DNA from: Squalus acanthias
Lineage: Eukaryota
Direction of reading: 5' to 3'
DNA: 64,000 nt
Assembly: GCA_030390025.1 (NCBI GenBank)
Contig: CM059432.1
Span: 16,804,001 to 16,868,000, forward strand
Shown here: positions 1 to 61,000 of the stretch, in pieces
Layout of the letters: the number at the start of each line of letters is the position of its first letter
How positions within the stretch are numbered: the first letter of the stretch is position 1
Translations under genes and position numbers: made by a program
The notes under the pieces: generated by a model
Database searches by the model: none
Told to the model about the DNA's origin: nothing
The model's input: the letters and a program-made list of their open reading frames with translations, nothing else

Positions 1-2700
1 GTTAACCTTTGTTGCACCACCTCCAGGCCAACTATATCTTTCCTTCGATAAGGAGACCAAAACTGTGCAAAGTACTCCAGGTGTGGTCTCACCCAATTGT
101 AGCAAGACTTCCTTACTCTTATACTCCAACCCCCTTGCAATAAAGGCTAACATGCCATTTGCTTTCCTTATTGCTTGCTGTACCTGCATGCTAGCTTTCT
201 GTGTTTCTTGCATGAGGACACCCAAATCTCTCTGAACACCAATATTTGAAAGTTTCTTACCATTCAAAAATATTCTGTTTTTCTATTCTTCCTACCAAAG
301 TGAATAACCTCACATTTCCCTACATTATACTCCATCTGCCACCTTACTGCCCACTCACTTCGTCTATCTATATCCCTTTGCAGACTCTTTGTGTTCTCCT
401 CACAGCTTACTGTCCCACCTAGCTTTGTAACATCAGCAAACTTGGATACATTACGCTCGTTCCCATCATCTAGGTTATTAATATAGATTGTAAATAGCTG
501 AGGCCCCAACACTGATCCTTGCAGCTCCCCACTAGTTGCAGCCTGCCAACCTGAAAAAGATCTGTTTATCCCTACTCTCTGTTTTCTGTCCGTTAACCAA
601 TCCTCTATCCATGCTACTATATTACCCCCAACCCCTTGAGCCCTAATCTTGTGTAATAACCTTTTACGTGGCACCTTATCGAATGCCTTTTGGAAATCCA
701 AATATACTACATCCACTGGGTCCCCTTTATCTACCCTGCTAGTTACATCCTCAAAAAACTCTAATAAATTTGTCAAACACGATTTTCCTTTCATAAAACC
801 AAGTTGACTCTGCCTAATCATGTTATGATTTTCTAAGTGCCCTGATACCACTTCCTTACCAATGGATTCCAGCATTTTCCTGATGACTGATGTCAGGCTA
901 ACTGGCCTGTAGTTCCTTGTTTTTTCTCTCCCTCCTTTCTTGAATAGTGGTGTTACATTTGCAACCTTCCAGTCCGCTGGGACCGTTCTAGAATCTAGGG
1001 AATTTTGGAAGATCAAAACCAATGCATCCACTATCTCTTCAGCCACCTCTTTTAGAACCCTAGGATGTAGGCCGTCAGGCCCAGGGGATTTCTCGGCTTT
1101 TAGTCCCATTAGTTTCTCTAGTACTTTTTCTCTACTTATATTAATTATGTTAAGTTCCTCACCCTCATTAGGTCCTTGGTTCCCCACCATTTTTGGTATG
1201 CTTTTTGTGTCTTCTACTGTGAAGACAGATACAAAATATTTGTTTAACTTTTCTGCCATTTCCTTATTCCCCATAATAACTTCTCCTGTCTCAGCCTCTA
1301 AGGGACCAATGCTTACTTTTGCTACTCTCTTCCTTTTTACATATTTGTAGAAGCTCTTACAATCTGCTTTTATATTTCTTGCTAGTTTTCTCTCATTCTA
1401 TTTTTTCCCCCTTTTATCAATTTTTCAGTCATCCTTTGCTGGTTTCTGAAACTCTCCCAATCCTCAGGCTTACTATTATTCTTTGCAACATTATAAGCTT
1501 CTTCTTTCAATCTAATGCTATCCTTAACTTCTGTAGTTAGCCACGGTTGGATCACTTTTCCCGTGGCGTTTTTGTTTCTCAACGGAATATATTTTTGTTG
1601 AGAATTATGAAATATTTCTTTAAATGCCACTGCTTATCTACTGCCATACCTTTTAATCCAATCTACCTTAGCCAACTCGCCCCTCATACCTATATAATTG
1701 GCTTTATTTAAGTTTAAGACTCTAATTTTGGACTCAGGCAAGTCACTCTCAAAATTAAGGTGAAATTCTGTAATATTATGATCACTCTGCCCCAGAGGAT
1801 CCTTTACTATGAGATTGCTAATTAACCCCGTCTCATTACACAATACAAGATCTAAAATAGCCTGTTCCCTGGTTGGTTCCATGACATATTGTTCTAGGAA
1901 ACTGTCCCAAATGCATTCCATGAACTCGTCCTCCAGACTACCTTTGCCAATTTGATTTGTCCAGTCTATATGAAGATTAAAGTCCCCCCAAGATTATTGC
2001 ATTACACCTTTGTTGCAAGCTCCTACTATTTCTTGATTAATATTCTGTCCAATGGTATAGCTACTGTTAGGGGGCCTATATACTACTCCTACCAGTGTTT
2101 TCTGCCCCTTCTTATTCCTTATCTCCACCCATACTGATTCTACTTCCTGATCTTCCGAGCCGAGATCCTTTCTCGCTACTGTCCTTATGTCATCCTTTAT
2201 TATCAGGGCTACTCCCCCCTCCTTTTCCATTTGGCCTGTCTTTTCGAAACGTCAAGTATCCTAGAACATTTAGTTCCCAACCTTGGCCACCTTGCAACCA
2301 TGTCTCTGCAATGGCTATTCGATCAAACCCATTTATCTCTATTTGTGCCACTAGTTCGTCTATCTTGTTACGAATGCTTTGTGCATTCAGATAAAGAGCC
2401 TTTAATTCAAATTTTTTACCATTATTCCCTACTTTGACCTTATTCTCTGCTGCACTGCTATTATTAAACTCTCTGTCCCTTCCTGTCACACTCTGCTTAT
2501 TTTTACCCAAATCACTACACTGCTCTATTGCCTTGACCTTTCTCCTTAGATTTTGAAATTTCCCCTCACCTGACGCCCCCCCCCCCTTTTTAGTTTAAAG
2601 TCCTATCTACAGCCCTAGTTATTCGATTCGCCAGGACGCTGGTCCCAGCCCGTCCCGACGGAAAAGCTCCCTCTTTCCCCAGTACTGGTGCCAGTGCCCC
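1..2700 (-). mobile_element. CR1/HER1 LINE, decayed ORF2 (APE endonuclease + reverse transcriptase), runs off the window start
   Basis: Minus-strand ORFs with [70 protein letters not shown] and FAD motifs, broken by frameshifts. Confidence 0.95.
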
Positions 2701-4380: not shown

Positions 4381-5402
4381 TTTCTTCTTTATTGGTACCG
4401 AATAGATCCTGTACTTATGTTATAATTCTGTACAGCATATTTTAAGGCCATGAATCTAATACACCATTAATTAATTACAAATTTAGCTTTATATGTTGGT
4501 ATCAAAAATACTTGCCACTTCCCTGAAAAACTGTTTAAACTCTAGTCAGCAGTGCAGGCGGAGAGCAGTTATTGAGCCCGATTATGAGCTGAGACAACAA
4601 TGAATTCAAACTTAAGTACAGCTCTTTAAGTTCTCTCCACGGATGTTTACTCAGGGTCCTCATATGATCAGAGTCAGTAACTCCTCCAAACCAACATGTC
4701 ACGCACTCACTCACCATTTAAATGCACACAAAAATCAAAAAGATTGATATAAACACAAAGTTGTTGAGGTTAATGACCTTTAGAATAAGGATACTGACAA
4801 TGACGGTAGCTCTTTTATATGCAATTTTACAGTAACCCATTTGCAAACAGGAATACGTAACATTATAATCATATGCCTTCAGGTTTTACATCACCATCAC
4901 CTCTACTACCCTTGCTTCACCTTGGACGTACTCCACATACTCAAGATAATGCCAAAAATGGTTAGAAATATTATTTAAAAATCAACTTGTATACTACATA
5001 ATGTCAACAAGTAGCTGGTAGCAAGCTTAAAGTGGTAATTCAATCTTTTCATTTAGCAGGCATTCCACTCCAGCTTTGCTGTTTGTTTTGCACGTCCTTG
5101 CAACTCAATGCCAGCCATTTAGTTATCCAATATATATTATACTGCATAATACACATACTACTTCCTTTATAATGGAAAACAAGCCCATCATTTTTACATC
5201 ACAACAGCCACTGGAGTGGTAGGGTAGATCAGCGCATCGGATTACCAAAACTTCATGCCACAAATTAACAGGGTGCAGATTTCTGCTTCAAATTTCCTAC
5301 ATAATAACTAAGATTTTAACTGGATAATCATGGAAAGGTGCCCAGGGTAGAAAAATAAACTCAGCCTCTTTTGCACACTTTCTGAAAGCTAGTTACGAAG
5401 AG

Positions 5403-5541
5403 GCCGGTGTTGGACTGGGGTGGACAAAAATGAGAAGTCGCACAACACCAGGTTATAGTCCAACAGTTTTATTTGAAATTACGAGCTTTCGGAGCGCTGC
5501 TCCTTCGTCAGGTACAGTGAGTGTTCTGCGACTTCTCATTT
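5403..5541 (-). mobile_element. Penelope-like family A mini-insertion with partial inverted end
   Basis: 13-bp TSD TAGTTACGAAGAG (5390-5402, 5542-5554). Same sequence family as 9858-10076 and 57938-58073. Confidence 0.85.
5480..5514 (-). ncRNA. Minimal type I hammerhead ribozyme motif
   Basis: UAC-CUGACGA-A-GGAGC-agc-GCUCC-GAAA-GC-UC-GUA: core boxes, 5-bp stem II, palindromic AGCU stem III, stem I UAC/GUA. Confidence 0.75.
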
Positions 5542-7904
5542 TAGTTACGAAGAGCCAGAGGTCATGGTACTGTTTGCATAACTGCTCTTTTGACAAAGAA
5601 TGACATGTGGTGCAAAAGTTACAGGTAGGAGAAAAAGTGGGAACCAGGAGCAATTTGGGGGGGGGGGGGGGGGGGGGGGGTGGGGGGAGGAAATTAAGGG
5701 AGAAAGTGTGCACAAGAAAAATAACCTCTCTACTTATTATTGCCCATCATTCATCTATTGTTTTTAAATGAAAAACATTTGTGTAATTCACTTACACACA
5801 TAATTGCTTTTCAATACAATCAAGTCAAGTATGTATCTCCATAAACCACTCAACTTAAAAATAAATATGCTAAATCTATTAAAATACAATTATCTAGGCA
5901 TCGACCTCACTCCCAGCCTCAAAGCTCGAATATGAATTCACAGCAGAGCCCTAAATGAACTTGGCAACATTTGCACCTTTTCAATGATCGTTGACGATTC
6001 ATTATATATGGATGTGGATAAAGCAGGGGTCATTCAGAGATTATATAAATTAATTCTTCTATAAAACCTAAGTGCAAGAATGTGTCTAGAAATTGTAATT
6101 TTGTTCTGTTCTCATTGATACCACATAGTAACTATACAGTAGCTAGTGCATTTATGGTTCTTCAGATACCAAAGTCGTTTTAGTCTCCCTTTTATCCGCC
6201 TTGTGCAAACACTTAGCAAAAATAAATTCACTTTTCACAAAGGTAATTCTCCAGAAAGACAGGTCCATTTAACATGCTATCATTGATCTCCAACAGCAAC
6301 TAAAAGTGCATCTATTTTGAGGGCAAATCACTGTTAACTGTGCACTGCTGATAACAGGCAAACAGCCATATTGCTATCAATGACAGAATGCAAATTAATT
6401 GTGTTTTACCATTCGATCTGTTTTCACTCTAAAAACATGAATATTTAACAAGTATTGATAAGAATGTAAAGCATAATTTAGTTCTACAAATTTAGATTTG
6501 AATAGTATCGAAAAGCTCCTTCTCTGTATGTAGACTAAAAGATTGACCAGATGCCTTTAGCATTTAAATAAATGGCAGCACCATAAATTTGCAATGAATG
6601 CTACAGCCAGCACTTTGAACGCTCAAGATTTGAGTTATGCGTATTTACAAGAAAACCTGGCAGCAAATGGTTAAATGTAGATGGTACAATCAAAATAAAA
6701 TCTTACCAGAACTGATATTCAAGATGCAACTATGGGTAGGTACACTGAACTGAATTAGTCACATTTAACCAGTTGATTATCGGGAGTCCCATCAGAATAG
6801 TTGATGTTAAGATAATATGGCTTACACAAAACAGTACTATTGTACTTCAGCAGGCATTGAAACAAGTCGTAAGAAAAAACTAAAATCAGTACGAGAAAAG
6901 TTGGTTCACAATGAACTTCCTTAATACAGGTAGACTAAGTGGATATTTATTTCTACAAACTCTCCAATAACACTGTTTAAATAGACAAGTTTCGGTCATC
7001 CCCACTAATTAATTGTTAAGACTAATTAAAATCAAATTTACACATCTGGATTACTTCACTGCATTCGGCAAAAGTTAATACAAAACTATTTTCCCAGGTT
7101 GGTAGAAAATTGCCACATCTTACTGCGATGTAATATAAGGAGAAGTCAGAGAGGCAAGGAGGGTAGAAAGCAGGTACTTTCTCTTAAACAGGACACTGAC
7201 TGCCCCTTTTCCGAGATCAACTGCTTAGCAAGTAACAAAGGGAACAAAGATAATGCCTAGCTACTCAGTTGAACATAAAGCAACTTTCCAGAAACAGATC
7301 TTTAAATAAAAGTCAATGTTAGCTCCATCAATGTATTCCAGCTAGTTTTGCCAATGATTATGACCATGCAATTTCCCTCAATCCCATTCACCTCCAGTTT
7401 GAGAGAATATGGATTTTTTTTAAAAACTTACTTTAAAAGGAAATTGTAATAAAGTCACACATTACTGATTTACAATCCATGCACCATAAACATGAAACAT
7501 CAAATATTTGTCATAGTAAAAAAGACAATGGTACATTAAAAAAGTTACAGAAAAATTCAGTCTACTTTGCACTTGATAATTTCCCCTTTCTTGATCATGT
7601 TTTCTTTACCATGAAAATCACAGGTTAAACTAGTTAAACACCACAACATATATGTAGCTAGGTGTTCGGTGAAATGCAACTCCATCCCTACATGCATAAT
7701 GAGCTTGATATTTTCTAATCTCGCTACAATTTAGTATGTACTCTGATTAAGGCATGATAATTATCATTTTTAAACATGGCATATTTTAAGCCATATTTTG
7801 ATATTCCAATGCCAATTCGGTTACTGATATTAATAACTACAGTATTAATATACGTTTGGGACAAAAAGTCACGACAAGTTACTATTAATGGATAGCCTAT
7901 ATCA

Positions 7905-9732: not shown

Positions 9733-9857
9733 TCCTCGGATAAGGAAGGATATACTTGTCACAGAGGGAGTGCAACCAAGGTTCACCAGACTGGTTCCTG
9801 GGATGGGGGGATTGTCCTATGAGGAGAGATTGAGTAGACTGGGCCTATATTCTCTGG

Positions 9858-10076
9858 TCATGATGCGGAGATGCCGGTGTTGGACTGGGGTGGACAAAAA
9901 TGAGAAGTCGCACAACACCAGGTTATAGTCCAACAGTTTTATTTGAAATCACAAGCTTTCGGAGCTATCGATCGCCCCTTCCTTCACCTGAGGAAGGGGC
10001 GATCGATAGCTCCGAAAGCTTGTGATTTCAAATAAAACTGTTGGACTATAACCTGGTGTTGTGCGACTTCTCATTT
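9858..10076. mobile_element. Penelope-like family A insertion with an 87-bp perfect inverted repeat
   Basis: 12-bp TSD TATATTCTCTGG (9846-9857, 10077-10088). Arms 9897-9983 and 9991-10077, with an unpaired tail at 9858-9896. Confidence 0.9.
9984..10025 (+). ncRNA. Minimal type I hammerhead ribozyme motif
   Basis: UCAC-CUGAGGA-A-GGGGC-gaucgaua-GCUCC-GAAA-GC-UU-GUGA. Confidence 0.7.
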
Positions 10077-10595
10077 TATATTCTCTGGAGTTAAGAAGAA
10101 TGAGAGGTGATTTCATTGAAACATACAAAATTCTTACAGGGCTTGACAGGGTAGATGGAGGGAGGATGTTTCCCCTGGCTGGGGAGTCTAGAACCAAGGG
10201 TCACAGTCTCAGAATAAGGGGTCGGCCATTTAGGACTGAGATGAGGAGAAATTTCTTCACTCAGAGTAGTGAATCTTTGAAATTCTCTACCGCAGAGGGC
10301 TGTGGAGGCTTAGTCGTTGAGTATATTCAAGATAGAGATCGATAGATTTTTGAATATTAAGGGAATCAAGGGATATGGAGACAGTGCAGGAAAGTGGAGA
10401 TGAGGTAGAACATCAGCCAAACTGCCTGTTGCAATGTTGCAATTTCTATGTAATTCAATGTAATGAGGTATCAGAGGATGTTCAGTGGCAATGGAAACCA
10501 TACCACAACAAGCAGTCAACGTCTTCAGGAAACAAAGAGGAGTGGACCATATTGGCTGAGAAAAGTGGCGAGAAAGAAAATTTAAATAGATGGGA

Positions 10596-24419: not shown

Positions 24420-24465
24420 CTCTGGCCCAGCAGACTGGGAATGGACTGCAGCCGCTCCTCTCCAT
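24420..24465 (-). CDS. PTK2: Alternative 5-prime coding exon of focal adhesion kinase (N-terminal extension MERSGCSPFPVCWAR-E)
   Basis: Minus strand reads ATG GAG AGG AGC GGC TGC AGT CCA TTC CCA GTC TGC TGG GCC AGA G|gtattg. The peptide matches the human long FAK isoform segment I recall as MEKSGCSPFPVCWAKE-YDRYLASSKI-MAAAYLDP. The phase-1 donor fits a split Glu codon. The frame is open upstream (TLLPRQQGLFQEAGVVC) to a TAG at 24528-24526. The identification is from memory, not a search. Confidence 0.8.
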
Positions 24466-24950
24466 GCAGACGACACCTGCTTCTTGGAACAGGCCTTGCT
24501 GCCTTGGCAGCAGCGTACACGCTAGCTAGGCCACTGCATACAATGTCTCAATTCAACACTGCCAGTATAGGCTCCAGCAGGGGGCTGGGAAGACACTTCA
24601 ATTTGTTCAGTCCAACACAAAAACCCTGCTTCCTTTCATATGCGCCTTCACGTTAATTCTCCTATTACAGGCTCCACAGTGGTGCAGAACAGCATACAAT
24701 TTCTTCAGCAAAGAACTGCACCAAACCTCCTTCAAGTTTCAGATTCTCCTCATGTTTCTCGAGCCATCCTTTCCAGTGCAAACTGCTAAAAGGCACCACT
24801 GTAGCCTGCAGCCAGCTCCATTTGGAGTTGATTAGCAAGCACCTTATTAATATGCTAATCTCACCCGCAGACTCCTGTTTACAAAACTGACAAGAGAATT
24901 CAACCGATGCCTCACTGCAAATCAAATCTGACCCAGGTCATGACTGTATG
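24466..24950 (-). promoter_or_regulatory. Probable 5-prime UTR/proximal promoter of the alternative PTK2 exon
   Basis: Unique sequence directly upstream of the exon, inside a stretch (about 23340-25625) where I recognised no repeats. FOX-type TGTTTAC at 24876-24882 and nuclear-receptor half-sites TGACCCAGGTCATGAC at 24929-24944. Confidence 0.35.
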
Positions 24951-34042: not shown

Positions 34043-34126
34043 CAGGGCATCATTTCTCAGCTTGCAGATGACACGCAACTCAGAAATGTAGTAAACAATG
34101 AGAAGGATAGTAACAGACTTCAGGAG

Positions 34127-34163
34127 TCGTCCACCCCAGTCCAACACCGGCATCGCCACATCA
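34127..34163 (+). mobile_element. Penelope-like family A 37-bp tail-only insertion
   Basis: TCGTCCACCCCAGTCCAACACCGGCATCGCCACATCA flanked by the 12-bp TSD AGACTTCAGGAG (34115-34126, 34164-34175). Confidence 0.85.
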
Positions 34164-34674
34164 AGACTTCAGGAGGACAGACAAACAGACTGGTGAAATG
34201 GGCAGACACACGGCAGATGAAATTTAACGCAGAGAAGTGTGAAGTAATACATTTTGGTGGGAAGAATGAGGAGAAGCAATATGAACTAAATGGTACAATT
34301 TTAAAAGGGGTGCAGGAACAGAGACCTGGGGGTGTGTGTACACAAATCTTTGAAGGTGGCAGGACAGGTTGAGAAGGCCGTTAAAAAAGCATACAGGATC
34401 CTGGGATTTATAAATAGAGGCATAGAGTGCAAAAGCAAGGAAGTTGTGTTAAAACTTTATACAACACTGGTTAGGCCTCAGCTAGAGTATTGTGTTCAAT
34501 TGTGGGCACCACACTTTAGGAAGGATGTCAAGGCTTTGGAGAGGTTGCAGAAGAGATTTAGTAGAACTGTACCAGGGATGAGGGACTGCAGTTCTGTGGA
34601 GACTGGAGAAGCTAAGGTTGTTCTCCTTGGAGCAGAGAAGGTTAAGAGACAATTTGATAGAGGTGTTCAAAATC

Positions 34675-38889: not shown

Positions 38890-40301
38890 TAAAAGAGAGC
38901 AGGACCCAAGGACAGCATGGACCTGGAAGGAGTCAGCAGCAGATTATAAAGAGAGTGGGACCCGAGGACAGCATGCACCAGGAAAGAATTGGCAGCAGAG
39001 GCGGCAGAGAATGGGCGCACGGTGGCATAGTGGTTAGCACTGGTGCCTCACAGCGCCAGGGACCCGGGTTCGAATCCGGCCTCGGGTGACTGTCTGTGTG
39101 GAGTTTGCACATTCTCCCCGTGTCTGCGTGGGTTTCCTCCGGGTGCTCCGGTTTCCTCCCACAGTCCAAAAATGTGCGGGTTAGGTTGATTTGGCTATGA
39201 TAAATTGACCCTTAGTGTTAGGGGGGGATTAAATATGTGGGGTTACGGGGATAGGATGGGATATGTAAGGGGGAATTAAATACGTGGGGTTACGGGTATA
39301 GGGTGGGATATGTGTCGGTGCAGGCTCGATGGGGATTCTGTGTGGGAAAGCAGGGACAGGGTACTGGATTTGGATGATCAGCCATGATCGTATTGAATGG
39401 TGGAGCAGGCTCGACGGGCCGAATGGCCTACTCCTGCTCCTAGTTTCTATGTATAAAGAGAGCGTGACCAGAGGACAGCACAGACCTGGAAGGAGTCGGC
39501 AGAGAATAAAGAGAGCGTGACCCGAGGACAGCACAGACCTGGAAGGAGTCGGCAGAGAATAAAGAGAGAGGGACCAGAGGACAGCACAGACCTGGAAGGA
39601 GTCGGCAGCAGAGGCGGCAGAGAATAAAGAGAGCGGGACCAGAGGACAGCGCGGACCTGGAAGGAGTCAGCAGAGAATAAGGAGAGAGGGACCAGAGGAC
39701 AGCACAGACCTGGAAGGAGTCGGCAGCAGAGGCGGCAGAGAATAAAGAGAGCGGGACCAGAGGACAGCACGGACCAGGAAAGAATTGGCAGCAGAGGCGG
39801 CAGAGAATAGAGAGCGCGGGACCCGAGGACAGCACAGACCTGGAATGAGGCGGCAGCAGAGGCGGCAGAGAATAGAGAGAGTGGGACCCGAGGACAGCAC
39901 AGACCTGGAATGAGGCGGCAGCAGAGGCGGCAGAGAATAGAGAGAGCGGGACCCGAGGACAGCACAGACCTGGAATGAGGTGGCAGCAGAGGCGGCAGAG
40001 AATAGAGAGAGCGGGACCCGAGGACAGCACAGACCTGGAATGAGGCGGCAGCAGAGAATAGAGAGAGCGGGACCCGAGGACAGCACAGACCTGGAATGAG
40101 GCGGCAGCAGAGGCAGCAGAGAATAGAGAGAGCGGGACCCGAGGACAGCACAGACCTGGAATGAGGCGGCAGCAGAGGCGGCAGAGAATAGAGAGAGCGG
40201 GACCCGAGGACAGCACAGACCTGGAATGAGGCGGCAGCAGAGGCGGCAGAGAATAGAGAGAGTGGGACCCGAGGACAGCGTGGACCTGGAATGAGGCGGC
40301 A
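38890..40301 (+). repeat. Tandem array of about 16 monomers of 54-65 bp, abutting a CR1 5-prime end
   Basis: Unit AATAGAGAGAGYGGGACCCGAGGACAGCACAGACCTGGAATGAGGCGGCAGCAGAGGCGGCAGAG, 65-nt period at 39871/39936. Two units lie before the SINE insertion and about 14 after. Confidence 0.95.
39013..39452 (+). mobile_element. V-SINE (HE1-type)
   Basis: tRNA head (GGTGGCATAGTGGTTAGC, GGTTCGAATCC), V-domain GTGTGGAGTTTGCACATTCTCCCCGTGTCTGCGTGGGTTTCCTCCGGGTGCTCCGGTTTCCTCCCAC and CR1/HER1-derived tail GATCAGCCATGATC...CCTACTCCTGCTCC. Confidence 0.92.
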
Positions 40302-41815
40302 GTACAAATCCGGCAAATTCCAAAAAAACAAAGTGATGTCACAGGACAGCAGGTAGGTGATTGGTGGGTGAGTATTAACTTTTTTTTCTCTAACTTAACT
40401 AGATAAACTAATTAAAATAACTATAAATAATCGTTTGAATAAAGACTTTAACTAAGAGAGCGAGAGAAGTGGCCAGAGATAAAGGTAGGCCCAACTTTTA
40501 AGAATCTAAGTCTTAAGTTTATTTCTGTAAGTTAGCTAATAGTCTATTAAATAGAGGCATGACAGGGCACCTCAGCCCCGTGGAATGCACATCTTGTGCC
40601 ATGCGGGAACTCCAGGATGCTTCCCGTGTCCTGGATGATTACATGTGCAGGAAGTGTCATCAACCGGAGGAGCTCGAGCTCCGGGGTTTCAGCAGCTGGC
40701 ATCACTGCAGTGCATCCGTGAGGCTAAGAGCTTCATGGAGTTTTCAGGAGGTGGTCACCTCGCAGCTTAAGAGTGTGCAGGCAGAGAGGGAATGGGTGAC
40801 CGTCAGACAGACAAGGAGGACCAAGCAGGAAATCCACGAGTCCAACTACTGGTGAGGGCGATGGTTCCTCTGGGGAGTACAGCCAGAGCCAAGTTCACGG
40901 CACCATGGGTGGCTCTGCTGTACGGGAAAGGGGGGGGGGGGGGGGGAGGAGGAAGATCGGGAAAGCAATAGTGGTAGGGGATTTGATAGTTAGGGGAACA
41001 GAGAGGCGGTTCTGCGGCCGCAGACGTGATTCCAGGATGGTATGTTGCCTCCCTGGTGCCAGGGTCAAGGATGTCACTGAACGGCTGCAGAACATTTCGA
41101 GGGGGGGAGGCTGAACAGCCAGAGGTCGTTATCCATATCAGTATCAACGACAGAGGGGAAAAAGGGATGAGGTCCTGCAGGCAGATTTTATGGAGCTAGG
41201 AAAGAAATTAAAAAGCAGGACCTCAAAAGGTAGTAATCTCTGGATTACTCCCGGTGCCACGAGCTAGTGAGTATAGAAATAGGAGGACAGAGCAGATGAA
41301 TGCATTGCTGGAGAGATGGTGCGGGAGGGTTTTAGATTACTGGCTGGACGTAGCAATAGAAGGGAGAAAAAAAGTGCACAAAGGATTGGGCGAGACAGAT
41401 AGCACTAGAGTAAGAAATAGTAAGGTATTAGGTGGGGTCAGACTAAGAGAGAATACAAGAAGGTCTAAGATAGGTTTACAGTGCATGTGTGTAAATGCAC
41501 AAAGCGTGGTAAATAAGGTTGGTAAACTGCAGGCACAAATAGCCACATGAGACTATGATATCGTGGTGATAACAGAGACCTGGCTCAAAAAAGGGTCGGA
41601 TTGGGTATTAAATATTCCTGGATATAAGGTGTTCAGGATAGATAAGGAAGGAAAGAAAGGAGGCAGTATTGGTTAAGGAGAATGTTACAGTGCTGGAGAG
41701 AGAGGATGTCCTGGAGGGGTCAAGGACAGAATCTATTTGGTTAGAGTTAAGAAATAATGGAGGAGCCATTACATTACTAGGTGTATTCTATAGGCCACCA
41801 ACTAGTGGGAAGGAT
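40302..41815 (+). mobile_element. CR1 LINE 5-prime part: 5-prime UTR, ORF1 (zinc finger + SGNH esterase-like) and start of the ORF2 endonuclease
   Basis: ORF1 from 40559 with CTSC...CRKC, IVVGDLIVRG and VCCLPGARV. Endonuclease VNAQSVVNK, ITETWL and FYRPP. Ends at a DeuSINE. Confidence 0.88.
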
Positions 41816-43029: not shown

Positions 43030-44403
43030 TGGCCAGTCAGTTTAACGTCGGTGGCGGGGAAGCTTTTAGAAACAATAATCCGTGAGAAAATTAATAGCCA
43101 CCTGGATAAGCATGGACTAATAAAGGAGAGCCAGCACGGATTTGTTAAGGGCAAATCGTGTTTGACTAAATTGATTGAGCTTTTTGATGAGGTAAAAGAG
43201 AGGGTGGATGAGGGCAGTGCGGTTGATGATGTGCAGAAGGACTTCTGAAAGGCGTCTGATAAAGAACCACATATTAGGTTTCTTAGAAAAATTGAAGCCT
43301 ATGGGATAATAGGGGCAGGAGCAGCATGGATACAAAATTGGCTTAGGGATAGAAAACAGAGTTGTGGTGAATTGCTGTTTTTCAGACTGAACGGTGGCTT
43401 ACAGTGGCAGTCCCCAAGCTTCAGTACTAGGACCACTGCTGTTTGTGCTATACATTTATGACTTAGACTTGGGGCTACAGGGCACAATTTCAAAATTTGC
43501 AGATGACAGATCAAACTTGGAAGTGTAGTAAACACTGAGAAAGTTAGTAATAGACTTCAAGGCGGCATAAACAGGTGGACTGGATGGATACATGGCAGAT
43601 GAAATTCAACACAGAAAAGTGTGAGGTGATACATTTTGGTAAGAAGAATGAGGAGAGACAATACATACTAAATGGTACCATTTTAAAGGGGGTACAAGAA
43701 GAGAGAGACCTGGGGTGTTAGTGCATAAATCTTTGAAGGTGGCAGGGCAGGTTAACAAAGCATTTAATAAAGCATATGGGGTTTATAAATAGAGGCATAT
43801 CGTACAGAAGGCAAGTAGTTATGCTAAACCTATATAACACATGATTTCGGCCCCAGCTGGAATATCGTGTCCAATTCTGGGCACCACACTTTAGGAAGGA
43901 CGTGAAGGCATTGGAGAGGGATAGAAGAGATTTACTAGAATGGTTCTAGGGATGAGGGATTACAGTTACGTGGATAGACTGGAGAAGCTGGGGTTATTTG
44001 CATTAGAGCCAAGAAGGCTAAGAGGAGATTTGATAGAGGTGTTTAAAATCATGAAGGGTTTTGATAGAGCAAATAAAGAGAAACTGTTTCCAATGGCTGA
44101 AGGGTCGATAACCAGAGGGCACCGATTTACGGTGATGGGCAAAAGAACCAGAGGTGACATGAGGAAAAACTTTATTGCGCAACGAGTGGTTAGGATTTGG
44201 AATGCACTGCCTGATACGGTGGTGGAAACAGATTCAATAGGAAGCTTCTAAAGGGAATTGGATAAATACTTGGGGGAGAAAATGCAGGGATGGGGAGAGA
44301 GTGGGGGAGTGGGACTAACTGAATTGCTCTTCAAAAGAGCTGGTGTAGACTCGATGGGCCGACTGGCCTCCTCCTGTGTTGTACAATTCTATGAATCTAT
44401 GAT
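43030..44403 (+). mobile_element. CR1 LINE RT/3-prime fragment
   Basis: QHGFVKGKSCLT, FADD and RLRGDLIEVFKIM motifs, with a (TTCTATGA)-type tail. Confidence 0.9.
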
Positions 44404-50190: not shown

Positions 50191-50603
50191 TCCTGTGAAC
50201 CTTTGTTCCCGTAAAAAGTGCCGCCATATACCTAAACCACTCATCTCTGAAAGCATCTTAGTAAATCTTCTGTGCTCCATATCATTGATACCTTTACGAA
50301 AGTAGGGCACCCAAAACTGGACACAATATTATAATTCCAGCCGAAGCAGTGATTTGTATAGGTTTAATGTTGCCTCTTTGCTTTTGTACTCAACGCCCCT
50401 ACTTATAACACCAATTCATGCCCTTCTGAAGTCATTTACAGTCCCCCTTACAGGTAACCACTCTCCCATTTTTGCGTCACCTCAAAATCTTGATAGTACA
50501 CCTTATACCTGAGTCCAAACCATTTCTATATATATTATGAAGAACAATGGTACAAACAAGGACTCTTGGGGAACACACTCTTTACATAACATAAGAAATA
50601 GGA

Positions 50604-52090
50604 CAAGACTTGTGCTCCAGGACTAGCCGCGCCTCTCGCCAAGCTGTTCCAGTACAGCTACAACACTGGCATCTATCCGACAATGTGGAAAACTGCCCAG
50701 GTATGTCCTGTCCACAAAAAGCAGGACAAATCCAATCCGGCCAATTACCGTCCCATCAGTCCACTCTCAATCATCAGCAAAGTGATGGAAGGCGTCATCG
50801 ACAGTGCTATCAAGCAGCACTTACTCACCAATAACCTGCTCACTGATGCCCAGTTTGGGTTCCGCCAGGACGACTCAGCTCCCAACCTCATTACAGCCTT
50901 GGTCCAAACATGGACAAAGGAGCTGAATTCCAGAGGTGAGTTGAGAGTGAATGCCCTTGACATCAAGGCAGCATTTGACCGAGTCTGGCATCAAGGAGCC
51001 CTAGTAAAACTGAAGTCAATGGGAATCGGGGGGAAAACGCTCCACTGGCTGGAGTCATACCTAGCACAAAGGAAGATGGTTGTGGTAATTGAAGGTCAAT
51101 CATCACAGCCCCAGGACATCACTGCAGGCGTTCCTCAGTGCAGTATCCTAGGCCTAACCATCTTCAGCTGCTTCATCAATGACTTTCCCTCCAACATAAG
51201 GTCAGAAATGGGGATGTTCACTGATGACTGCAGTGTTCAATGCCCTTCGCAACTCCTCAGATAATGAAGCAGTCCATGCCCGCATGCAACAAGACCTGGA
51301 CGACATTCAGGCTTGGGATTATAAGTGGCAGTTAACATTTGCACCACACAAGTGCCAGGTAATGACTGTCTCCAACAAGCGAGAGTCTAACCACCGCCCC
51401 TTGACATTCAACGGTATTACTATCGCTGAATCCCCCACCATCAACATCCTGGGGGGTCACCATTGACCAGAAACTTAACTGGACCAGCCACATAAATATT
51501 GAGGCAACAACAGCAGATCAGAGGCTAGGTATTCTGCGGCGAGTGTCTCACCTCCAGACTCCCCAAAGCCTTTCCACCATCTACAAGGCACAAGTCAGGA
51601 GTGGGATGAATACTCTCCATTGCCTGGATGAGTGCAGCTCCAACAACACTCAAGAAGCTCGACACCATCTAGGACAAAGCAGCCCGCTTGATTAGCACCC
51701 CATCCACCACCTTAAACATTCACTCCCTCTACCACCGGCGTACCGTGGCTGCAGTGTGCACCATCTACAAAATGCACTGCAGCAATTCACCAATACTACT
51801 TCGGCAGCACCTCCCAAACCCGCAACCTCTTGCACCTAGAAGGACAAGGGCAGCAGACGCATGGGAACATCACCACCTCCAAGTCACACACCATCCTGAT
51901 TTGGAAATATATTGCTGTTCCTTTATCGTCGCTGGGTCAAAATCCTGGAACTCCCTCCCTAACAGCACCGTGGGAGTACCTTCACCACACGGACTGCAGC
52001 GGTTCAAGAAGGGGGCTCACCACCACCCTCTCAAGGGCAATAAATGCTGGCCTTGCCAGCGACGCCCAGATCCTATGAACAAAAAAAAAC
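50604..52090 (+). mobile_element. Second CR1-group LINE family, RT to poly(A)
   Basis: WKTAQVCPVHKK, NYRPIS, QFGFRQ, LDIKAAFDRVWH, GVPQCSILG and FTDD motifs. AATAAA and an A-tail. TSD TAAGAAA(T/C)AGGA (50592-50603, 52091-52102). Confidence 0.9.
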
Positions 52091-55000: not shown

Positions 55001-55962
55001 GGGGCTTGATCGGGTGGATGCGGTAAGGATGTTCCCAAGGATGGGTGAAACTAGAACTAGGGGGCATAATCTTAGAATAAGGGGCTGCTCTTTCAAAACT
55101 GAGATGAGGAGAAACTTCTTCACTCAGAGGGTAGTAGGTCTGTGGAATTTGCTGCCCCAGGAAGCTGTGGAAGCTACATCATTAAATAAATTTAAAACAG
55201 AAATAGACAGTTTCCTAGAAGTAAAGGGAATTAGGGGTTACGGGGAGCGGGCAGGAAATTGGACATGAGGCTGAGTTCAGATCGGTCGAGGCCCTGTGGG
55301 TGGCGTAGCGGGCCCAGGGGCTGAGTGGCCGGGTCCTGCTCCTACTTCTTGTGTTCTTTAGATTTGAGGTGAGGATCAGATCAGCCATGATCTTATTGAA
55401 TGGCGGAGCAGGCTCGAAGGGCCGATTGGTCTACTCCTGCTCCTATTTCTTATGTTCTTATGTACAAGGACACCCAGGTCCCTCTGAATGCAAACATTTC
55501 CCAGTCTCTCACCATGCAAAAAATATTCTGCTTTTTTGTTTTTCCTACCAAAGTGGATAAATTAACACTTCCCCAGTGTATTCCATTTGCCATGTTCTTG
55601 TCCACTCAGTCAACCTGTCTATATCTCTCTGCAGCCTCTTTGCATTACTTACTTTCCCACCTAACTTTGTATCATCAGCAAACTTGGATATGTTACTCAG
55701 TCCCTTCATCTAAGTCACTAATATAGATTGTAAATTGTTGAGGCCTAAGCACTGATCCTTGCGGTACCCCGCTAGTTACAGCCTGCCAACCTTAAAAAGT
55801 CCCGTTTATTCCTACTCTCTGTTTTCTGTCATTAGCCAATCCTCAATCCATGCTAATATATTACCCCCAATCCCATGAGTCCTAATTTTGCGTAATAACC
55901 TCTTGTGTGGCACCTTATTGAATGCTTTTTGAAAATCCAAATACACTACATCCACTGGTTCC
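52091..55962 (-). mobile_element. Antisense CR1 (tail at 50584-50603; body 52091-52770 and 55460-55962)
   Basis: 207-aa ORF at 52144-52767. The element continues at TGTACAAGGACACCC after the sense insert. Highly similar to 29599-31026. Confidence 0.9.
52771..55459 (+). mobile_element. Young CR1 LINE ORF2 (endonuclease + RT) with internal deletions
   Basis: ORFs 52845-53519 (YLNARSIRNK, ITETWL, YRPP, MGDFN), 53940-54559 and 54453-55268. ATGTA duplicated at 52766-52770 and 55460-55464. (TTCTTATG)n tail. Confidence 0.95.
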
Positions 55963-55997
55963 ATCCCTCCAGTCCAAAAAACATCCATTAACCACTA

Positions 55998-56095
55998 AAA
56001 TAACAACAGAAAGCTCTGGAAAAACTCAGCAGGCCAGGCAACATCCGTGGAGAGAGAAACAGAGTTAACGTTTCAGGTCGAAGACCCTTCGTCAG
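55998..56095 (-). mobile_element. Penelope-like family B mini-insertion
   Basis: AACCACTA duplicated at 55990-55997 and 56096-56103. Homologous to 3759-3831. Confidence 0.8.
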
Positions 56096-56098
56096 AAC
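56064..56098 (-). ncRNA. Minimal type I hammerhead ribozyme motif (family B)
   Basis: GUU-CUGACGA-A-GGGUC-uuc-GACCU-GAAA-CG-UU-AAC: palindromic ACGU stem III and stem I GUU/AAC. Confidence 0.75.
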
Positions 56099-57937
56099 CA
56101 CTACTCTGTTCTCTTTCCTTTAGCCAGTTTGTTATTGATTTTGCCACATTCCCTTATACCACGCACTTAATTTTATCAACAATCTTCCAACACCGCACCT
56201 TAATAATCAACTTTTGAAAATCCATACACACACCAGAGGTGTTACATTGGCAACCGACCAGTCCTCTGATATAAATTCCATTTCAAGCATGTTTGAAAGA
56301 TTGTGGTTGGAGATCTGCTCTTTCCCGTCTGACTTCCTTCAACAGGTGCCTTTACTATTTTGAGTTGCATAAATTTTTTCAGCAGTAATTCCTGATCGCT
56401 GGTTATCCATTCAATTGCTCCATTTTGTTCTTGTACCATTTTATTCCCACAATTGCACATTTCTGCGAAAACGTCAAGTCCTGACTTTGTATCTCTGCCA
56501 TTCCATCATCTTTTGTAAGACTGTCTGTTGATGAATGAGGAACGGTATTTATATTATCAGCTGCATTTATTGGGTTTTGTATGGCACTAGTCCCACCAGT
56601 TTCCAATTTGCGAGCCTGACAAGGCCAGCAGCATCCCCAGAATGCTGACCTTGAAGTTCTACTATTCTCTTTGACATGGTATCAGTTTACCCATTTTGTT
56701 AAAAAAACAGAAGTAACCAGAAACATAAGTAATTCCTCCCACCACCACCCCCACTCTCTCCACTTCTCTCCCATTATCCCTCCAGAACAGTCAAAAAAGT
56801 AATAGAAGTTTAAATTTCAATAGAAGCCACTGAGGACATGACCAGACTTATGCTCATTTCCTTTTCCTGTGTTTGCTTTCTCATTTGATTTGTCATCTCC
56901 TACCCTACTACTCTATACTAATGTACAAAGAAAGATGTATGAAATTATTCTTTATATTTATATTTTAAATCAAGTTTGTTTAGTTAAAGTATCTAAGCTA
57001 CATACCACTATTCAAGTACAGCTCACTTCTGTCAGTTTCCTCTCTGGTATTCCATGCAGTTCAAAAGGTTTTTCCCCTCTACAGAGAACAGCAAGGCTAC
57101 TCAAAACATTAATAATACTTGAATTTCCTCTGTAGCATATCCTTCATCCTGCAAAATGATGACTTCACCACTGCTCATATGACCTTTACATCCTTTATGA
57201 ACTTCCTTCATTTATTCCATTAGATAATTGTTAGGCTACAGAGACTGGCTTCAAGATTGTGGATCCTCCATTTAATTATCTAGTATGAAGCGATATGGCA
57301 TTTTCTCTTTTCGCACACTCATCCAAATAATGTAACCTCCTTTTTTTTGCTCCAATGCATTAATATTTCTCCAAAGCAGCCGTGTGAATGATTTGCTTTC
57401 CCAGTCTTCATACAGCAAATGCATTAACTTCTGTACAACAGCAATACCATAGAGGTTTACAGCATAGGAGAGCATTTCGCCCAGTGCCTCCATGCCAGTA
57501 CTTTCCTAGAGTCAAGATTGAGACGTAAACTCACATCGCAATATTGTAAGAAGAGTGGAAAGTTTAGAATTTGGTCAGAGTAGGAATTCGATGCGGAGGG
57601 GGGAAGGAGGTGCTTCTTTTTGCCTTTAACAGTTGTAGTGGTTTGTGTAAACTTGAGGCAGTAAGTAGAGCAGCAGATTTAAACAGTGTGCAAGAGCTGG
57701 CAGCAGCAGAGCCCATTGGGAGAAGCAGGGCGGCAGAACAGACAGAAGAAAAACTCAAAAAGTGACGTCATAGTCAGCACCGTGTGTGGAGCGGCACGGG
57801 TAAGTCATGGGTATTAAGTTTATTAGTTAGTGTTTTTAGTGGTTAGTGTCTTTTATTTAGTGGATAGCATTTACGTTTTGGCATTAGCTAAACAGTTAAA
57901 TAGCCATAAAGCTAAAAAGAATCTGTATATAAATATA

Positions 57938-58073
57938 AAAGTGAGAAGTCGCACAACACCAGGTTATAGTCCAACAGCTTTATTTGAAATCACAAGCTTT
58001 CGGAGCGCTGCTCCTTCGTCAGGTGACCTCTCACTTTTGTCCACCCCAGTCCAACACCGGCATCTCCGCATCA
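57938..58073. mobile_element. Penelope-like family A mini-insertion in a CR1 5-prime UTR
   Basis: 12-bp TSD TATATAAATATA (57926-57937, 58074-58085). An inverted hammerhead-bearing segment is joined to a plus-strand tail. Confidence 0.85.
57990..58026 (-). ncRNA. Minimal type I hammerhead ribozyme motif
   Basis: UCAC-CUGACGA-A-GGAGC-agc-GCUCC-GAAA-GC-UU-GUGA. Confidence 0.78.
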
Positions 58074-61000
58074 TATATAAATATAGACTAAGATATGGCA
58101 GAGCAGGTTGTGTGTCTGGATTGCACTATGTGGGAGTTTGTAGACAACGAGACTGTCCAAAGTGAACACGTCTGCAGTTGATGTCTCAGCCTCAAATCCC
58201 TCTGGCACAGTCATTGAACTGAAGTACAAGTTGAAGACACTTCGACGCATAAGGGAGGGGGAGGAGTATCTGGACAGTTTGCTCCCGAATTCGGTCACAC
58301 CTTATAGAGGGGTGCAGGATCAGAACAGGGTGACTGATAGTATACAGCGTAAGGGGAACCCAGGAGAGAGAGAACGAGGGTCCGCAGAAACTGATCCTAT
58401 CCAACAGGTACAATGTGCTTGCAACCTGTGAGATAAAGATGAAGATTGTCGGAAGGACAGACAGAATGCAAACCAAGGCACCTTGGAGCAGGAGGCTGTC
58501 CAAAGGGGGGAGGAGGGGAAGCATAATGTGGGAGTTTGTAGGGGATTCTATAATTAGGGGGACAGATTGCATCCTTTGTAAGCAAGATCAAGAGTCCCAC
58601 ATGGTATGTTGCCCGCCTGGTGCCAGGGTGAGGGACATCTCGAACCAGCTTGAAAGGATATTGGAGAGGGAGGGGGGAAGATCCAGTCGTTGTGGTCCAT
58701 GTTGGGACAAACAACATAGCAAAGAGTAGGCAAGAGGTCCTGTTCAGAGAGTAACAGGAGCTAGGAGCCAAATTAAAAAACAGAACTTCAAGGGTTATAA
58801 TCTCTGGATTATTACCGGAGCCATGTGAAAATTGGCATAGGGATAAGAAGATTAGAGAGTTGAACACGTGGCTGAAGGAGTGGTGTGGAAAAGAGGGGTT
58901 CAATTTCATGGGACACGCATCAGTACTGGGACAGGAAGAAACTGTACCGTTGGAACAGGCTCCACCTGAATCGGGCTGGGACCAGAGACCTAGCAAAAAG
59001 GATATAAATGGGGCGGTCACAAGCAATGCTCCCTTTAAGCTGTGCAGCGCTCTGCAGCGCCCGCACAGCCAGCTTACCTGCTTTTAAATAGGAAAAACCT
59101 TAAACGGGGCCATGCACCCAAAAAGAAAATTAAAGGGAACATTGGTCACAAGGACTTTAAACTAATAAATGGGGGTGGCGGAGGGAGGAGGGCTCAGGTG
59201 GAAAAGGTAGTATAAGTAACAATTCCAAAACAAATGAAAAGCAAGAGAGTAATAGTCAGAAATTGTTCATTAGACACTACAGGTAAAGGGAAAACTAAAA
59301 GATGTAAAGTAATTAAATCAGGAGACAGAAATAAGAAATGAGAGAGAAAAGCATTAGAGCAGGACGGACAGGTTAGGGTCTGTGGCCCCAATAAACGTTC
59401 TTTATACAAAAGCACGGAGTATAAGGAACAAATTGAATGAATTGCAGGTGCAAATTCAACTTAGAGGGTGCGATATGGTAGCTATTACTGAGATACAGCT
59501 GCAAGACGGTCAGGACTGGGAATTGAATATACCAGTTTATAACGTCTACAGGAAGGATAGGGGGAGGAGTAACATTATTGATTAAGGATGAAATTACTTC
59601 TATGATAAGAAATGATATAACAAGAGGTAAGCAGGCAGTGGAGACTTTATGGGTAGAATCAAGAAATAGAAAAAGATTTAAGACTGCAGTGGGAGTTGTG
59701 TATAGGCCCCCCTGGTAGCAGCTGTGAAGTGGCAGAATGTATTAATGCAGAGATTAGACACGCATGTAGTAAAGGCAGAGTGGTTTTAATGGGGGATTTT
59801 AACTTCCATATAGATTGGGATAAGTAGACGACCTCATGTCAGAAAGATAACGAATTTCTTGTGTGGCCAGGATAGTTTTCTGTGACAATGCATCCTAGAA
59901 CCAACAAGGGGCAAGCCATATTAGATTTAATAATGAGTAATGAGCCAGATTTAGTTAACAGCCGAATGGTGCGTGAACATTTATCTAATAGCGAGCATAA
60001 TATGATTGAGTTCAATATCATGTTTGAAAGGGAGAAATGTGAAACAGCTACTAAGATTCTAGATTTAGGTAAGCCTAACTTCAACGGGATGAGAGAGACT
60101 ATCCACAGTAAACTGGGCAAATCTGTTAATGGGTAAAACGACAGATGATCAGTGGGAGATGTTCAAAAAAGAATTTAACGTGATACAGAACCAGTTTATA
60201 CCCCTAAGGGCAAGAGCTCGACTTGCCAAAAAAAAGCAGCCATGGACGACTAAAGAGGTAAGGGACAGCATAAAACTAAAAGAAAAAGCATACAAAAATG
60301 CAATACATAGCATAGATCCTGGCGAATTGGAGATTCGCCAAAATTAACGTAAGTAAATTAACAGCAATGAATAAAATAATGGCACTAAAGTGTGACAAAT
60401 TCCCAGGGCCTGATGGGTTTTATGCCAGAGTTTTAAAGGAAGTAGGTGAGAACATTGCAGATGCCCTAACTATGATCTTCCAAAGTCCTCTCTATTCAGG
60501 AACCATTCCTTTAGATTGGAAAATTGCACAGGTCACTCCGCTATTTAAGAAAGGTGAGAAAGGGAAAACAGACCAGTTAGCCTAACATCTGTGGTCAGGA
60601 AATTACTAGAGTCTATAATTAAGGATGAAGTGACTGAACACCTTGAAAAGTTTCAGCTGATCAGAGAGAGCCAGCATGGGTATTTAAAGGGTAGGTGATG
60701 CATGACGAATCTGATTGAATTTTTGAAAAGGTGACTAAAGTAGTGAACAGGGGAATATCGATGTGATTTATATGGACTTTCAGAAGGCATTCGATAAAGT
60801 CCCTCATAAGAGACTGTTAGCTAAGTTGAAGCTTGTGAAATTGAGGGCAATTTATTGACATGGTTAGGGCATTGGCTGAGCGGCAGGAAGACAGAGAGTA
60901 GGGATAATGGGCAGGTACTCTAATTGGCAGGATGTGAGTAGTGGCGTCCCAGAGGGATCTGTACTGGGGCCTCAACTATTCACTTATTTATTAACGACTT

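What the first reader, a model, noticed from the sequence alone, without database searches (positions are those of the whole stretch)
5390..5554. Family of tiny hammerhead-ribozyme-carrying Penelope-like insertions with covarying stems (family A)
Seen: four insertions of one short non-coding family (5403-5541, 9858-10076, 34127-34163, 57938-58073), each with an exact 12-13 bp TSD. Three carry CUGANGA-A-stemII-GAAA-GC-UH. Stem I covaries between copies (UAC/GUA at 5480-5514 vs UCAC/GUGA at 57990-58026 and 9984-10025). Stem II keeps pairing (GGAGC or GGGGC with GCUCC) while its loop changes from 3 to 8 nt. Established: Penelope-like elements carry minimal type I hammerheads with a palindromic stem III thought to act as dimers. 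Inference: a recently mobile family spreading only its ribozyme/terminal module, with an extra A after CUGANGA.
Basis: partly seen in the sequence, partly recalled or inferred. Interest (0 to 1): 0.75.

Follow-up and report, generated by a model that had tools for sequence, protein, structure and literature searches.

The report
Tiny Penelope retroelement end stubs
Four short inserts of one very abundant repeat family are real and are most likely ordinary stubs of a known kind of jumping gene (Penelope-like); their self-cutting RNA motif is of a described type and is predicted not to fold where it landed, but the places where the stubs start and stop hint at how these elements likely copy themselves.

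Summary
In detail: four insertions, exact 12-13 bp target duplications, three minimal hammerheads, and empty sites in paralogs or related organisms for all four. The reading holds only in part. The covariation is one compensatory pair in three sequences (173 of 500 shuffles reach it). The extra A, the palindromic stem III and solo motifs are the published Penelope minimal-hammerhead consensus (PMC4209133). That layout is described (PMC8557442, PMC3846280). In two of three two-armed copies neither arm can be a copy of the other. All four long arms read through the ribozyme cut site and stop within 13 nt at the motif's front edge. Most likely both cut DNA strands prime on uncleaved element RNA. 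No RT/GIY-YIG parent was linked here. This scan noted the same thing many times on other DNA. New member of a known kind; interest 0.25.

The parts
5390..5402 (.). Copy 1 target-site duplication, left (13 bp; right copy 5542-5554)
   Evidence: exact repeat; single copy at the empty site in organisms B and C: joint 5389 to 5542, 13 letters fit either side
5403..5520 (-). Copy 1 tailed arm: 9 nt before the core, hammerhead (5514-5480), AATAAA, body, 25-nt tail
5480..5514 (-). Copy 1 minimal type I hammerhead: stem I UAC/GUA, CUGACGA-A, stem II 5 bp with 3-nt loop, GAAA-GC-UC; predicted cut between 5483 and 5482
   Evidence: descriptor match; activity untested
5521..5541 (+). Copy 1 tail-less inverted arm, 21 nt, one mismatch to the tailed arm
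5542..5554 (.). Copy 1 target-site duplication, right
   Evidence: junction also in a second sample of organism A (X5 contig 5494-5650, 0 other letters)
9846..9857 (.). Copy 2 target-site duplication, left (12 bp; right copy 10077-10088), inside a CR1-like LINE remnant
   Evidence: 6 uninterrupted paralogs in the window span the site
9858..9983 (-). Copy 2 tailed arm, 126 nt: begins inside the hammerhead core (no CUG), 40-nt tail ending ATGA
9982..10076 (+). Copy 2 tail-less arm, 95 nt, with the whole hammerhead (9984-10025; core CUGAGGA-A, 8-nt loop II); 86 of 86 shared letters identical to the tailed arm
10077..10088 (.). Copy 2 target-site duplication, right
34115..34126 (.). Copy 3 target-site duplication, left (12 bp; right copy 34164-34175), inside a CR1-like remnant
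   Evidence: uninterrupted paralog at 43497-43637
34127..34163 (+). Copy 3: tail only (35 family letters plus TC), no hammerhead, no second arm
34164..34175 (.). Copy 3 target-site duplication, right
57926..57937 (.). Copy 4 target-site duplication, left (12 bp; right copy 58074-58085)
   Evidence: an organism B contig runs 57811-57925 straight into 58074-58200 (record 25)
57938..58026 (-). Copy 4 tail-less arm, 89 nt, with the whole hammerhead (58026-57990; UCAC/GUGA)
58025..58073 (+). Copy 4 tailed arm, 49 nt (13 nt of body, 36-nt tail); 2-nt overlap GA with the other arm
58074..58085 (.). Copy 4 target-site duplication, right

Best explanation
The four inserts are short pieces of one abundant repeat family, flanked by target duplications, and are most likely dead-end stubs of the terminal (pseudo-LTR) region of an endonuclease-bearing Penelope-like retroelement, likely made when both strands of a staggered cut primed reverse transcription on uncleaved element RNA. 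Steps: (1, inferred from PMC11167929) the element's RT/GIY-YIG protein binds its RNA near the pLTR-ORF junction and cuts both DNA strands 12-13 nt apart; (2, geometry shown, order inferred) each 3' overhang is extended with antisense element DNA, one from the end of the tail and one from the U run at the start of the tail; (3, shown) the arms stop at template positions -9, -6, -4, +3, +63, +72 and +86 relative to C3 of the core, never at the cut site (+29); (4, inferred) the long arms stop at a fixed boundary at the front of the ribozyme, probably the 5' end of the RNA; (5, inferred) the two arms are joined head to head with 0-2 nt of overlap and repair completes the duplication. The hammerhead is inherited from the parent's pLTR, where it would act as a dimer or with the protein's help; in these stubs it is predicted to be a passenger.
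For: Exact TSDs with empty sites for 4 of 4 inserts. Inverted tail-less arm in 3 of 4 and one-sided tail of 25, 40, 35-37 and 36 nt, as described for EN+ PLEs (PMC8557442 passages; PMC3846280 passages). Motif matches all four traits of the PLE minimal hammerhead. In copies 2 and 4 each arm holds sequence missing from the other, so neither is a fold-back copy. Arms of one insert share their variants (copy 2: 86 of 86 letters with the 8-nt loop; copy 4: CTCAC on both arms). The anole PLE protein cuts and extends both strands, starts at two sites that delimit the tail and does not need ribozyme cleavage (PMC11167929 main text). In sequencing runs, many copies end with unrelated flanks at either of two places, the tail start and the tail end (loose ends at 5421-5433 and 5399; 57933-57937 and 58074). 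Summed contig depth is the same on both sides of the cut site (5480 vs 5483: 1.22 vs 1.16 million in X5, 1.003 vs 1.003 in X6, 1.245 vs 1.245 in X7, 0.060 vs 0.059 in X9). Other copies continue upstream of stem I with shared letters and downstream of the tail with ATG-G/A-C (loose-end consensus in 4 of 4 runs). Stem I pairing probability in the whole insert is 0.01, 0.00 and 0.00.
Against: No RT/GIY-YIG frame was linked to the module: no GIY-YIG hit among 150 of the window's 156 open frames of 78 aa or more, no protein hit for the tail frame, no genome held. The loose-end consensus past the ATG has low agreement (0.37-0.41). The fixed stop rests on 4 arms of 3 inserts with boundaries set by hand and a span chosen after seeing the data (rough P 4e-4, 6e-3 at the upper hazard bound, counting 3 inserts), and many copies in the runs do extend 13-16 or more letters further upstream. 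Copy 1's short arm lies wholly within its long arm, so fold-back cannot be excluded there. The two-strand priming result comes from a lizard Poseidon element in vitro, not from this family. Folding predictions ignore co-transcriptional order and proteins.
Confidence: 0.8

Rival explanations
1. A dedicated short non-autonomous RNA (retrozyme-like monomer of about 130 nt, from the front of the hammerhead to the tail) is transcribed on its own and mobilised in trans by PLE protein; the inserts are its full or partial copies.
For: All 4 inserts and family B hold only the terminal module; none passes -9. Very high summed depth over the module (about 10^6 against 11-35 for unique flank; not a copy number). 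PLE-derived non-autonomous retrozymes, including solo monomers, are reported in vertebrates and in one chondrichthyan (bioRxiv 10.64898/2026.07.22.740005, part 1 and passages).
Against: No head-to-tail tandem among 4 inserts; four different layouts; other copies continue beyond the module at both ends; no arm ends at the cut site. The same products are expected from the 5' leader of a normal PLE mRNA.
Confidence: 0.12
2. The stubs come from long PLE RNAs and the arms stop at the hammerhead because the folded ribozyme (or bound protein) stalls RT, not because the RNA ends there. Same classification, different cause of the small size.
For: The four long arms stop just past stems II and I; the isolated copy 4 motif folds stably (z -3.16, 0 of 200 shuffles as stable); many copies extend further upstream.
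Against: RT would meet the structure at its 3' side (+29 to +32) first, yet all 4 arms pass it and stop at or beyond its 5' edge; the isolated motifs of copies 1 and 2 do not fold as hammerheads.
Confidence: 0.25
3. Head-to-head arms arise by self-priming or fold-back (as proposed for Adineta elements on an antisense template, PMC3846280) rather than by priming from both cut strands.
For: Copy 2 is a near-perfect hairpin with a short spacer; arms within an insert share variants; copy 1 is compatible.
Against: In copies 2 and 4 both arms hold unique sequence, which a DNA fold-back from either end cannot give; all 3 tail-less arms start at the same U run directly on the target's 3' end.
Confidence: 0.1
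4. The hammerheads are kept active in place as regulators of the host pre-mRNA.
Against: Copies 1 and 4 are absent from the matching sites in related organisms; stem I is predicted unpaired in context; single minimal motifs showed no cleavage in vitro (PMC4209133); no sense partner for a dimer lies nearer than about 50 kb.
Confidence: 0.03

Closest known systems
EN+ Penelope-like element insertions with inverted pLTR, one-sided tail and TSD (Pen2a_Av, PMC3846280; general scheme in PMC8557442; passages read)
   Same: [quoted passage not shown]
   Different: These inserts are 37-219 bp and hold no ORF; TSDs are 12-13 bp against 8-10 bp in Adineta; one insert is the tail alone; the parent ORF was not reached here.
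Minimal type I hammerheads of metazoan PLEs (Cervera and de la Pena 2014, PMC4209133; parts 1-2 of 4 read)
   Same: CUGANGA core, extra nucleotide between 9 and 10.1, G10.1-C11.1, palindromic 15.1-16.1, short helix I, solo motifs and pairs on opposite strands.
   Different: Helix II is 5 bp (7-8 bp in the Schistosoma families). No shark example in the parts read or in 2 of 3 supplementary files searched.
PAc, Poseidon element of Anolis carolinensis (Frangieh et al. 2024, PMC11167929; parts 1-2 of 4 read)
   Same: Two RT start sites bounding the tail; both strands extended; ribozyme cleavage not needed for insertion.
   Different: In PAc the ORF starts at stem II of the ribozyme; here the frame that holds the tail's ATG has a stop right after the ribozyme, so the ORF would start about 120 nt further on. 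The clade of this family was not determined here.
Animal non-LTR retrozymes (PMC7229834 passages; bioRxiv 10.64898/2026.07.22.740005)
   Same: Short, non-coding, type I hammerhead, long TSD, PLE-related.
   Different: Retrozymes are head-to-tail tandems, mostly with canonical ribozymes; these are single or head-to-head pieces with a minimal ribozyme and a PLE tail.

Membership tests
EN+ Penelope-like element (stub of) | Minimal type I hammerhead in the terminal repeat with extra nt after A9, G10.1-C11.1 and palindromic 15.1-16.1 | tested here: met
   3 of 4 inserts; traits from PMC4209133
EN+ Penelope-like element (stub of) | Inverted, tail-less 5' copy adjacent to the direct copy | tested here: met
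   3 of 4 inserts
EN+ Penelope-like element (stub of) | 30-40 bp tail at one end only | tested here: met
   25, 40, 35-37 and 36 nt in 4 of 4; two end positions in runs
EN+ Penelope-like element (stub of) | Target-site duplication made at insertion | tested here: met
   exact 12-13 bp; empty sites for 4 of 4, by paralog (copies 2, 3) or related organism (copy 1; copy 4, where the flank is multi-copy)
EN+ Penelope-like element (stub of) | Module joined to one ORF with telomerase-like RT and GIY-YIG endonuclease in a parent copy | tested here: inconclusive
   no GIY-YIG in 150 of 156 window frames; no protein hit; no true hit in three collections; loose ends show ATG-G/A-C after the tail; intact elements in this genome are known only from unchecked notes
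EN+ Penelope-like element (stub of) | Partial-tandem pLTR-ORF-pLTR organisation of the parent | not testable with these tools
   no genome held; contigs give 30-letter loose ends only
Hammerhead ribozyme (active) | Self-cleavage after the UH | not testable with these tools
   needs in vitro assay; folding predicts stem I unpaired in all three whole inserts
Hammerhead ribozyme (active) | Covariation support for stems I and II | tested here: inconclusive
   26 of 27 cells pair, 1 compensatory pair, 173 of 500 shuffles reach it; unphased run data agree with two stem I subfamilies
Non-LTR retrozyme | Head-to-tail tandem units, each with a hammerhead | tested here: not met
   0 of 4 inserts are tandem
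Non-LTR retrozyme | Expressed as a small circular RNA | not testable with these tools
   only contigs of runs guessed to be RNA were available

The most novel reading that the evidence does not exclude
The tiny inserts are not random truncations but complete run-off copies of the 5' leader of the ordinary Penelope mRNA: the RNA starts just in front of the hammerhead, the RT dimer starts internally about 85 and 125 nt downstream from both cut DNA strands, and so an untandemed transcript can only yield these stubs, while long copies need a tandem read-through RNA. The tail-only insert is the product of the outer primer stopping at the inner start site. Shark-type genomes would then hold a very large fossil record that maps the cut geometry, both RT starts and the RNA start of a poorly understood retroelement class.
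Probability: 0.4. Interest if true: 0.5.

Novelty: new member of a known kind. Interest (0 to 1): 0.25.

Why it matters
As a ribozyme or element discovery it is ordinary: motif, extra A, solo copies, inverted arm and tail are in print. Its value is as clean evidence on an open question, how Penelope-like elements make head-to-head ends and a one-sided tail. The junctions favour priming from both cut strands on uncleaved RNA, in line with the one in vitro study, and point to a fixed stop at the ribozyme's front edge that a genome-wide count and one 5' RACE could test. Lineage-specific presence/absence also makes such inserts usable as phylogenetic markers.

Tried and rejected
No own genome is held, so no genome-wide copy collection or covariance model was built; three sequences are too few for one. 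Rfam at gathering score: 0, which does not count against a minimal hammerhead. Pattern scans: metagenome contigs 0 with the body pattern and 2 with the tail pattern, both chance matches with no core and no body; viral contigs 0; prokaryote genome contigs 0. Pfam on 150 of 156 open frames of 78 aa or more: RVT_1 in 7 frames and AP-endonuclease families in 2 frames (CR1-like LINE remnants by my reading), no GIY-YIG. Protein search with the 43-aa open frame through copy 2's tail (30 aa element, 13 aa flank), longer proteins only: no candidate; weak evidence. Pair count used a mis-set structure string and is void; one search replaces it. No RNA holder was listed; X9 and X14 are RNA by guess only and say nothing on expression. 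No exact empty allele of copy 1 in X5 (55 in 100 of the run read) or of copy 4 in X1 or X5 among the joints shown (21 more not shown): polymorphism within organism A was not found, and absence is not shown. Depth figures were not used as copy numbers or to locate the upstream stop, since alignments fade near subfamily differences. Look-up of earlier findings by sequence gave nothing. Literature searches listed no paper on this shark-type family's hammerhead or on two-strand priming as the in vivo source of PLE inversions; I saw listings only for most, subscription papers are missing, Lunse et al. (PMC5785218) was seen only as a reference, and the bioRxiv supplements and one supplementary file of PMC4209133 were not seen and could list this family.

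Full report
Observation. The four insertions are at 5403-5541, 9858-10076, 34127-34163 and 57938-58073, flanked by exact repeats of 13, 12, 12 and 12 bp. Of 20,000 random intervals of these lengths with 6 nt of slack, 25 had such a 12-mer. BLASTN of the four against the window found no fifth family member. The surroundings are a repeat-rich vertebrate-type sequence of about 40% G+C with many CR1-like remnants. Earlier notes of this scan call the genome a shark (unchecked); I did not test the taxon.

The duplications were made at insertion. Six uninterrupted paralogs in the window span the site of copy 2 and one spans that of copy 3. In runs of organisms B and C a single contig joins 5389 to 5542, skipping 152 letters with 13 that fit either side, and its flank differs by 20 letters and 4 gaps over 490. 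A second sample of organism A carries the right junction of copy 1 without a difference. For copy 4, an organism B contig runs from 57925 straight to 58074, although this flank is multi-copy and may be a paralog; X1 carries the filled left junction. The module itself is extremely abundant in A, B and C (summed depth of order 10^6 against 11-35 on unique flank; not a copy number). So the family is present in all three organisms and these copies landed after they split. Polymorphism within A was not seen.

The ribozyme motif. A descriptor found 4 loci in the window, the three named and an unrelated family B; 100 Markov simulations gave a mean of 0.03. All four have one extra A after CUGANGA, a 5-bp stem II that opens with G-C, and a palindromic AGCU or ACGU in place of stem III. 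Cervera and de la Pena 2014 (PMC4209133, parts 1-2 of 4 read) list exactly these traits for PLE minimal hammerheads, report that most occur as single motifs probably from truncated PLEs, some as pairs on opposite strands, and that a single motif did not cleave while dimers cleaved weakly. The extra A is therefore not new. The covariation is real but thin: 26 of 27 cells pair, one pair changes on both sides, one on one side, and 173 of 500 shuffles reach the score. Run data fit two stem I subfamilies without phasing them: at 5480 nearly all depth in B and C has the GUG form with UCAC upstream, while about a fifth in X5 has the GUA form and contigs there read through GUAC. The stem II variant of copy 2 also appears among loose ends of X1 and X5.

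In element sense the module reads hammerhead, AATAAA at +38, body, U run at about +81 to +85, tail from +86 (C3 = 0). Copy 1 has a 118-nt tailed arm and a 21-nt inverted tail-less arm; copy 2 a 126-nt tailed and a 95-nt tail-less arm; copy 4 a 49-nt tailed and an 89-nt tail-less arm; copy 3 is the tail alone. An inverted 5' copy with a 30-40 bp tail at one end is the standard picture for EN+ PLEs (PMC8557442 and PMC3846280, passages), and the tail lies at the start of the ORF in Drosophila and Adineta elements (PMC2377424 and PMC3846280, passages). Here loose ends past the tail begin with G-A/G-C after ...CATCAT in 4 of 4 runs, that is ATG-G/A-C, with low agreement, and loose ends upstream of stem I share letters for 13-16 nt or more. 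The module is thus part of something longer, but I could not reach an ORF. Unchecked notes report intact Neptune-type elements in this genome; whether they carry these ends is untested.

How it most likely works. On each side of the three two-armed inserts, the strand whose 3' end carries the duplication continues as antisense element DNA: one from the tail's end, one from the U run. In copies 2 and 4 each arm has sequence the other lacks, so neither can be a fold-back copy of the other; yet arms of one insert share their private variants (86 of 86 letters in copy 2). This is what priming from both strands on the same kind of RNA gives. Frangieh et al. 2024 (PMC11167929, parts 1-2 of 4 read) showed in vitro that an anole PLE protein cuts and extends both strands, starts at two internal sites that bound the tail, and inserts equally well when the ribozyme is dead. 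In agreement, none of 7 arms ends at the cut site, 4 of 4 that reach it read through, and summed depth does not step down across it in 4 of 4 runs (at most 5 in 100). The four long arms stop at -9, -6, -4 and +3. With a hazard taken from the three earlier stops, this is unlikely by chance (about 4e-4 for three inserts, 6e-3 at the upper bound), but the span was chosen after the fact and boundaries were set by hand. Family B also begins at the front of its core. I read this as run-off at the RNA's 5' end (a Penelope transcript starts inside the pLTR); stalling at the ribozyme and a dedicated short RNA are the rivals. Notes from other windows propose the same; they are not independent support, and I took the run-off wording from them.

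Function in place. The whole inserts fold into long hairpins between their arms; stem I pairing probabilities are 0.01, 0.00 and 0.00, although the isolated copy 4 motif folds as a hammerhead. The inserts are lineage-specific and lack a nearby sense partner. They are probably inert.

Verdict. Real, recent relative to related organisms, and best read as stubs of a Penelope-like element; formal membership lacks the ORF link. New member of a known kind, noted many times by this scan on other DNA (75 findings in at least 15 genomes). Interest 0.25.

Noticed in passing
window 55998-56095 (-), TSD 55990-55997 and 56096-56103: Second, unrelated minimal hammerhead insert (family B, 98 nt, 8-bp duplication, ACGU palindrome, extra A). 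It begins at C3 of the core; the 5' strand of stem I is supplied by the last letters of the target duplication.
   Followed up: partly
window 5542-5554, 10077-10088, 57926-57937, 34115-34126: All three tail-less arms start on a target strand ending in TA-3' and begin with AAA; the only insert without a second arm (copy 3) has GGAG at that end. Four cases only.
   Followed up: partly
window 34127-34163: Tail-only insertion with its own 12-bp duplication: it stops at the place where the tail-less arms of the other copies start.
   Followed up: yes
window 24420-24528 (-): Exon noted earlier as a PTK2/FAK N-terminal exon; an open frame on - ends at a GT donor. The inserts would then be intronic, with copies 1 and 4 and family B in sense. 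Gene identity not tested here.
   Followed up: partly
run X14, record 11: A 3,967-nt contig (depth 87) of a run guessed to be RNA carries the module at its positions 55-137 with about 3.8 kb downstream in element sense: either a full element or a host transcript; its letters were not available.
   Followed up: no
window 5448-5457 and 5409-5417 (-): A 9-bp inverted match between the body just after AATAAA and the tail closes a predicted stem-loop around the U run; z-scores are weak (-0.9, -1.4).
   Followed up: partly
window 38894-40427: Tandem array with a 65-nt unit, 11 or more copies, with long open frames on -.
   Followed up: no
window 5656-5689: Run of about 34 letters, nearly all G.
   Followed up: no
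window 267-1397, 50602-51261, 52812-55265: LINE remnants with RVT_1 or AP-endonuclease Pfam hits; three of the four inserts sit in such repeats.
   Followed up: partly
L001 1493-1512, L002 986-1005: Exact 20-letter matches to the tail in two metagenome contigs with no other part of the module: chance.
   Followed up: yes
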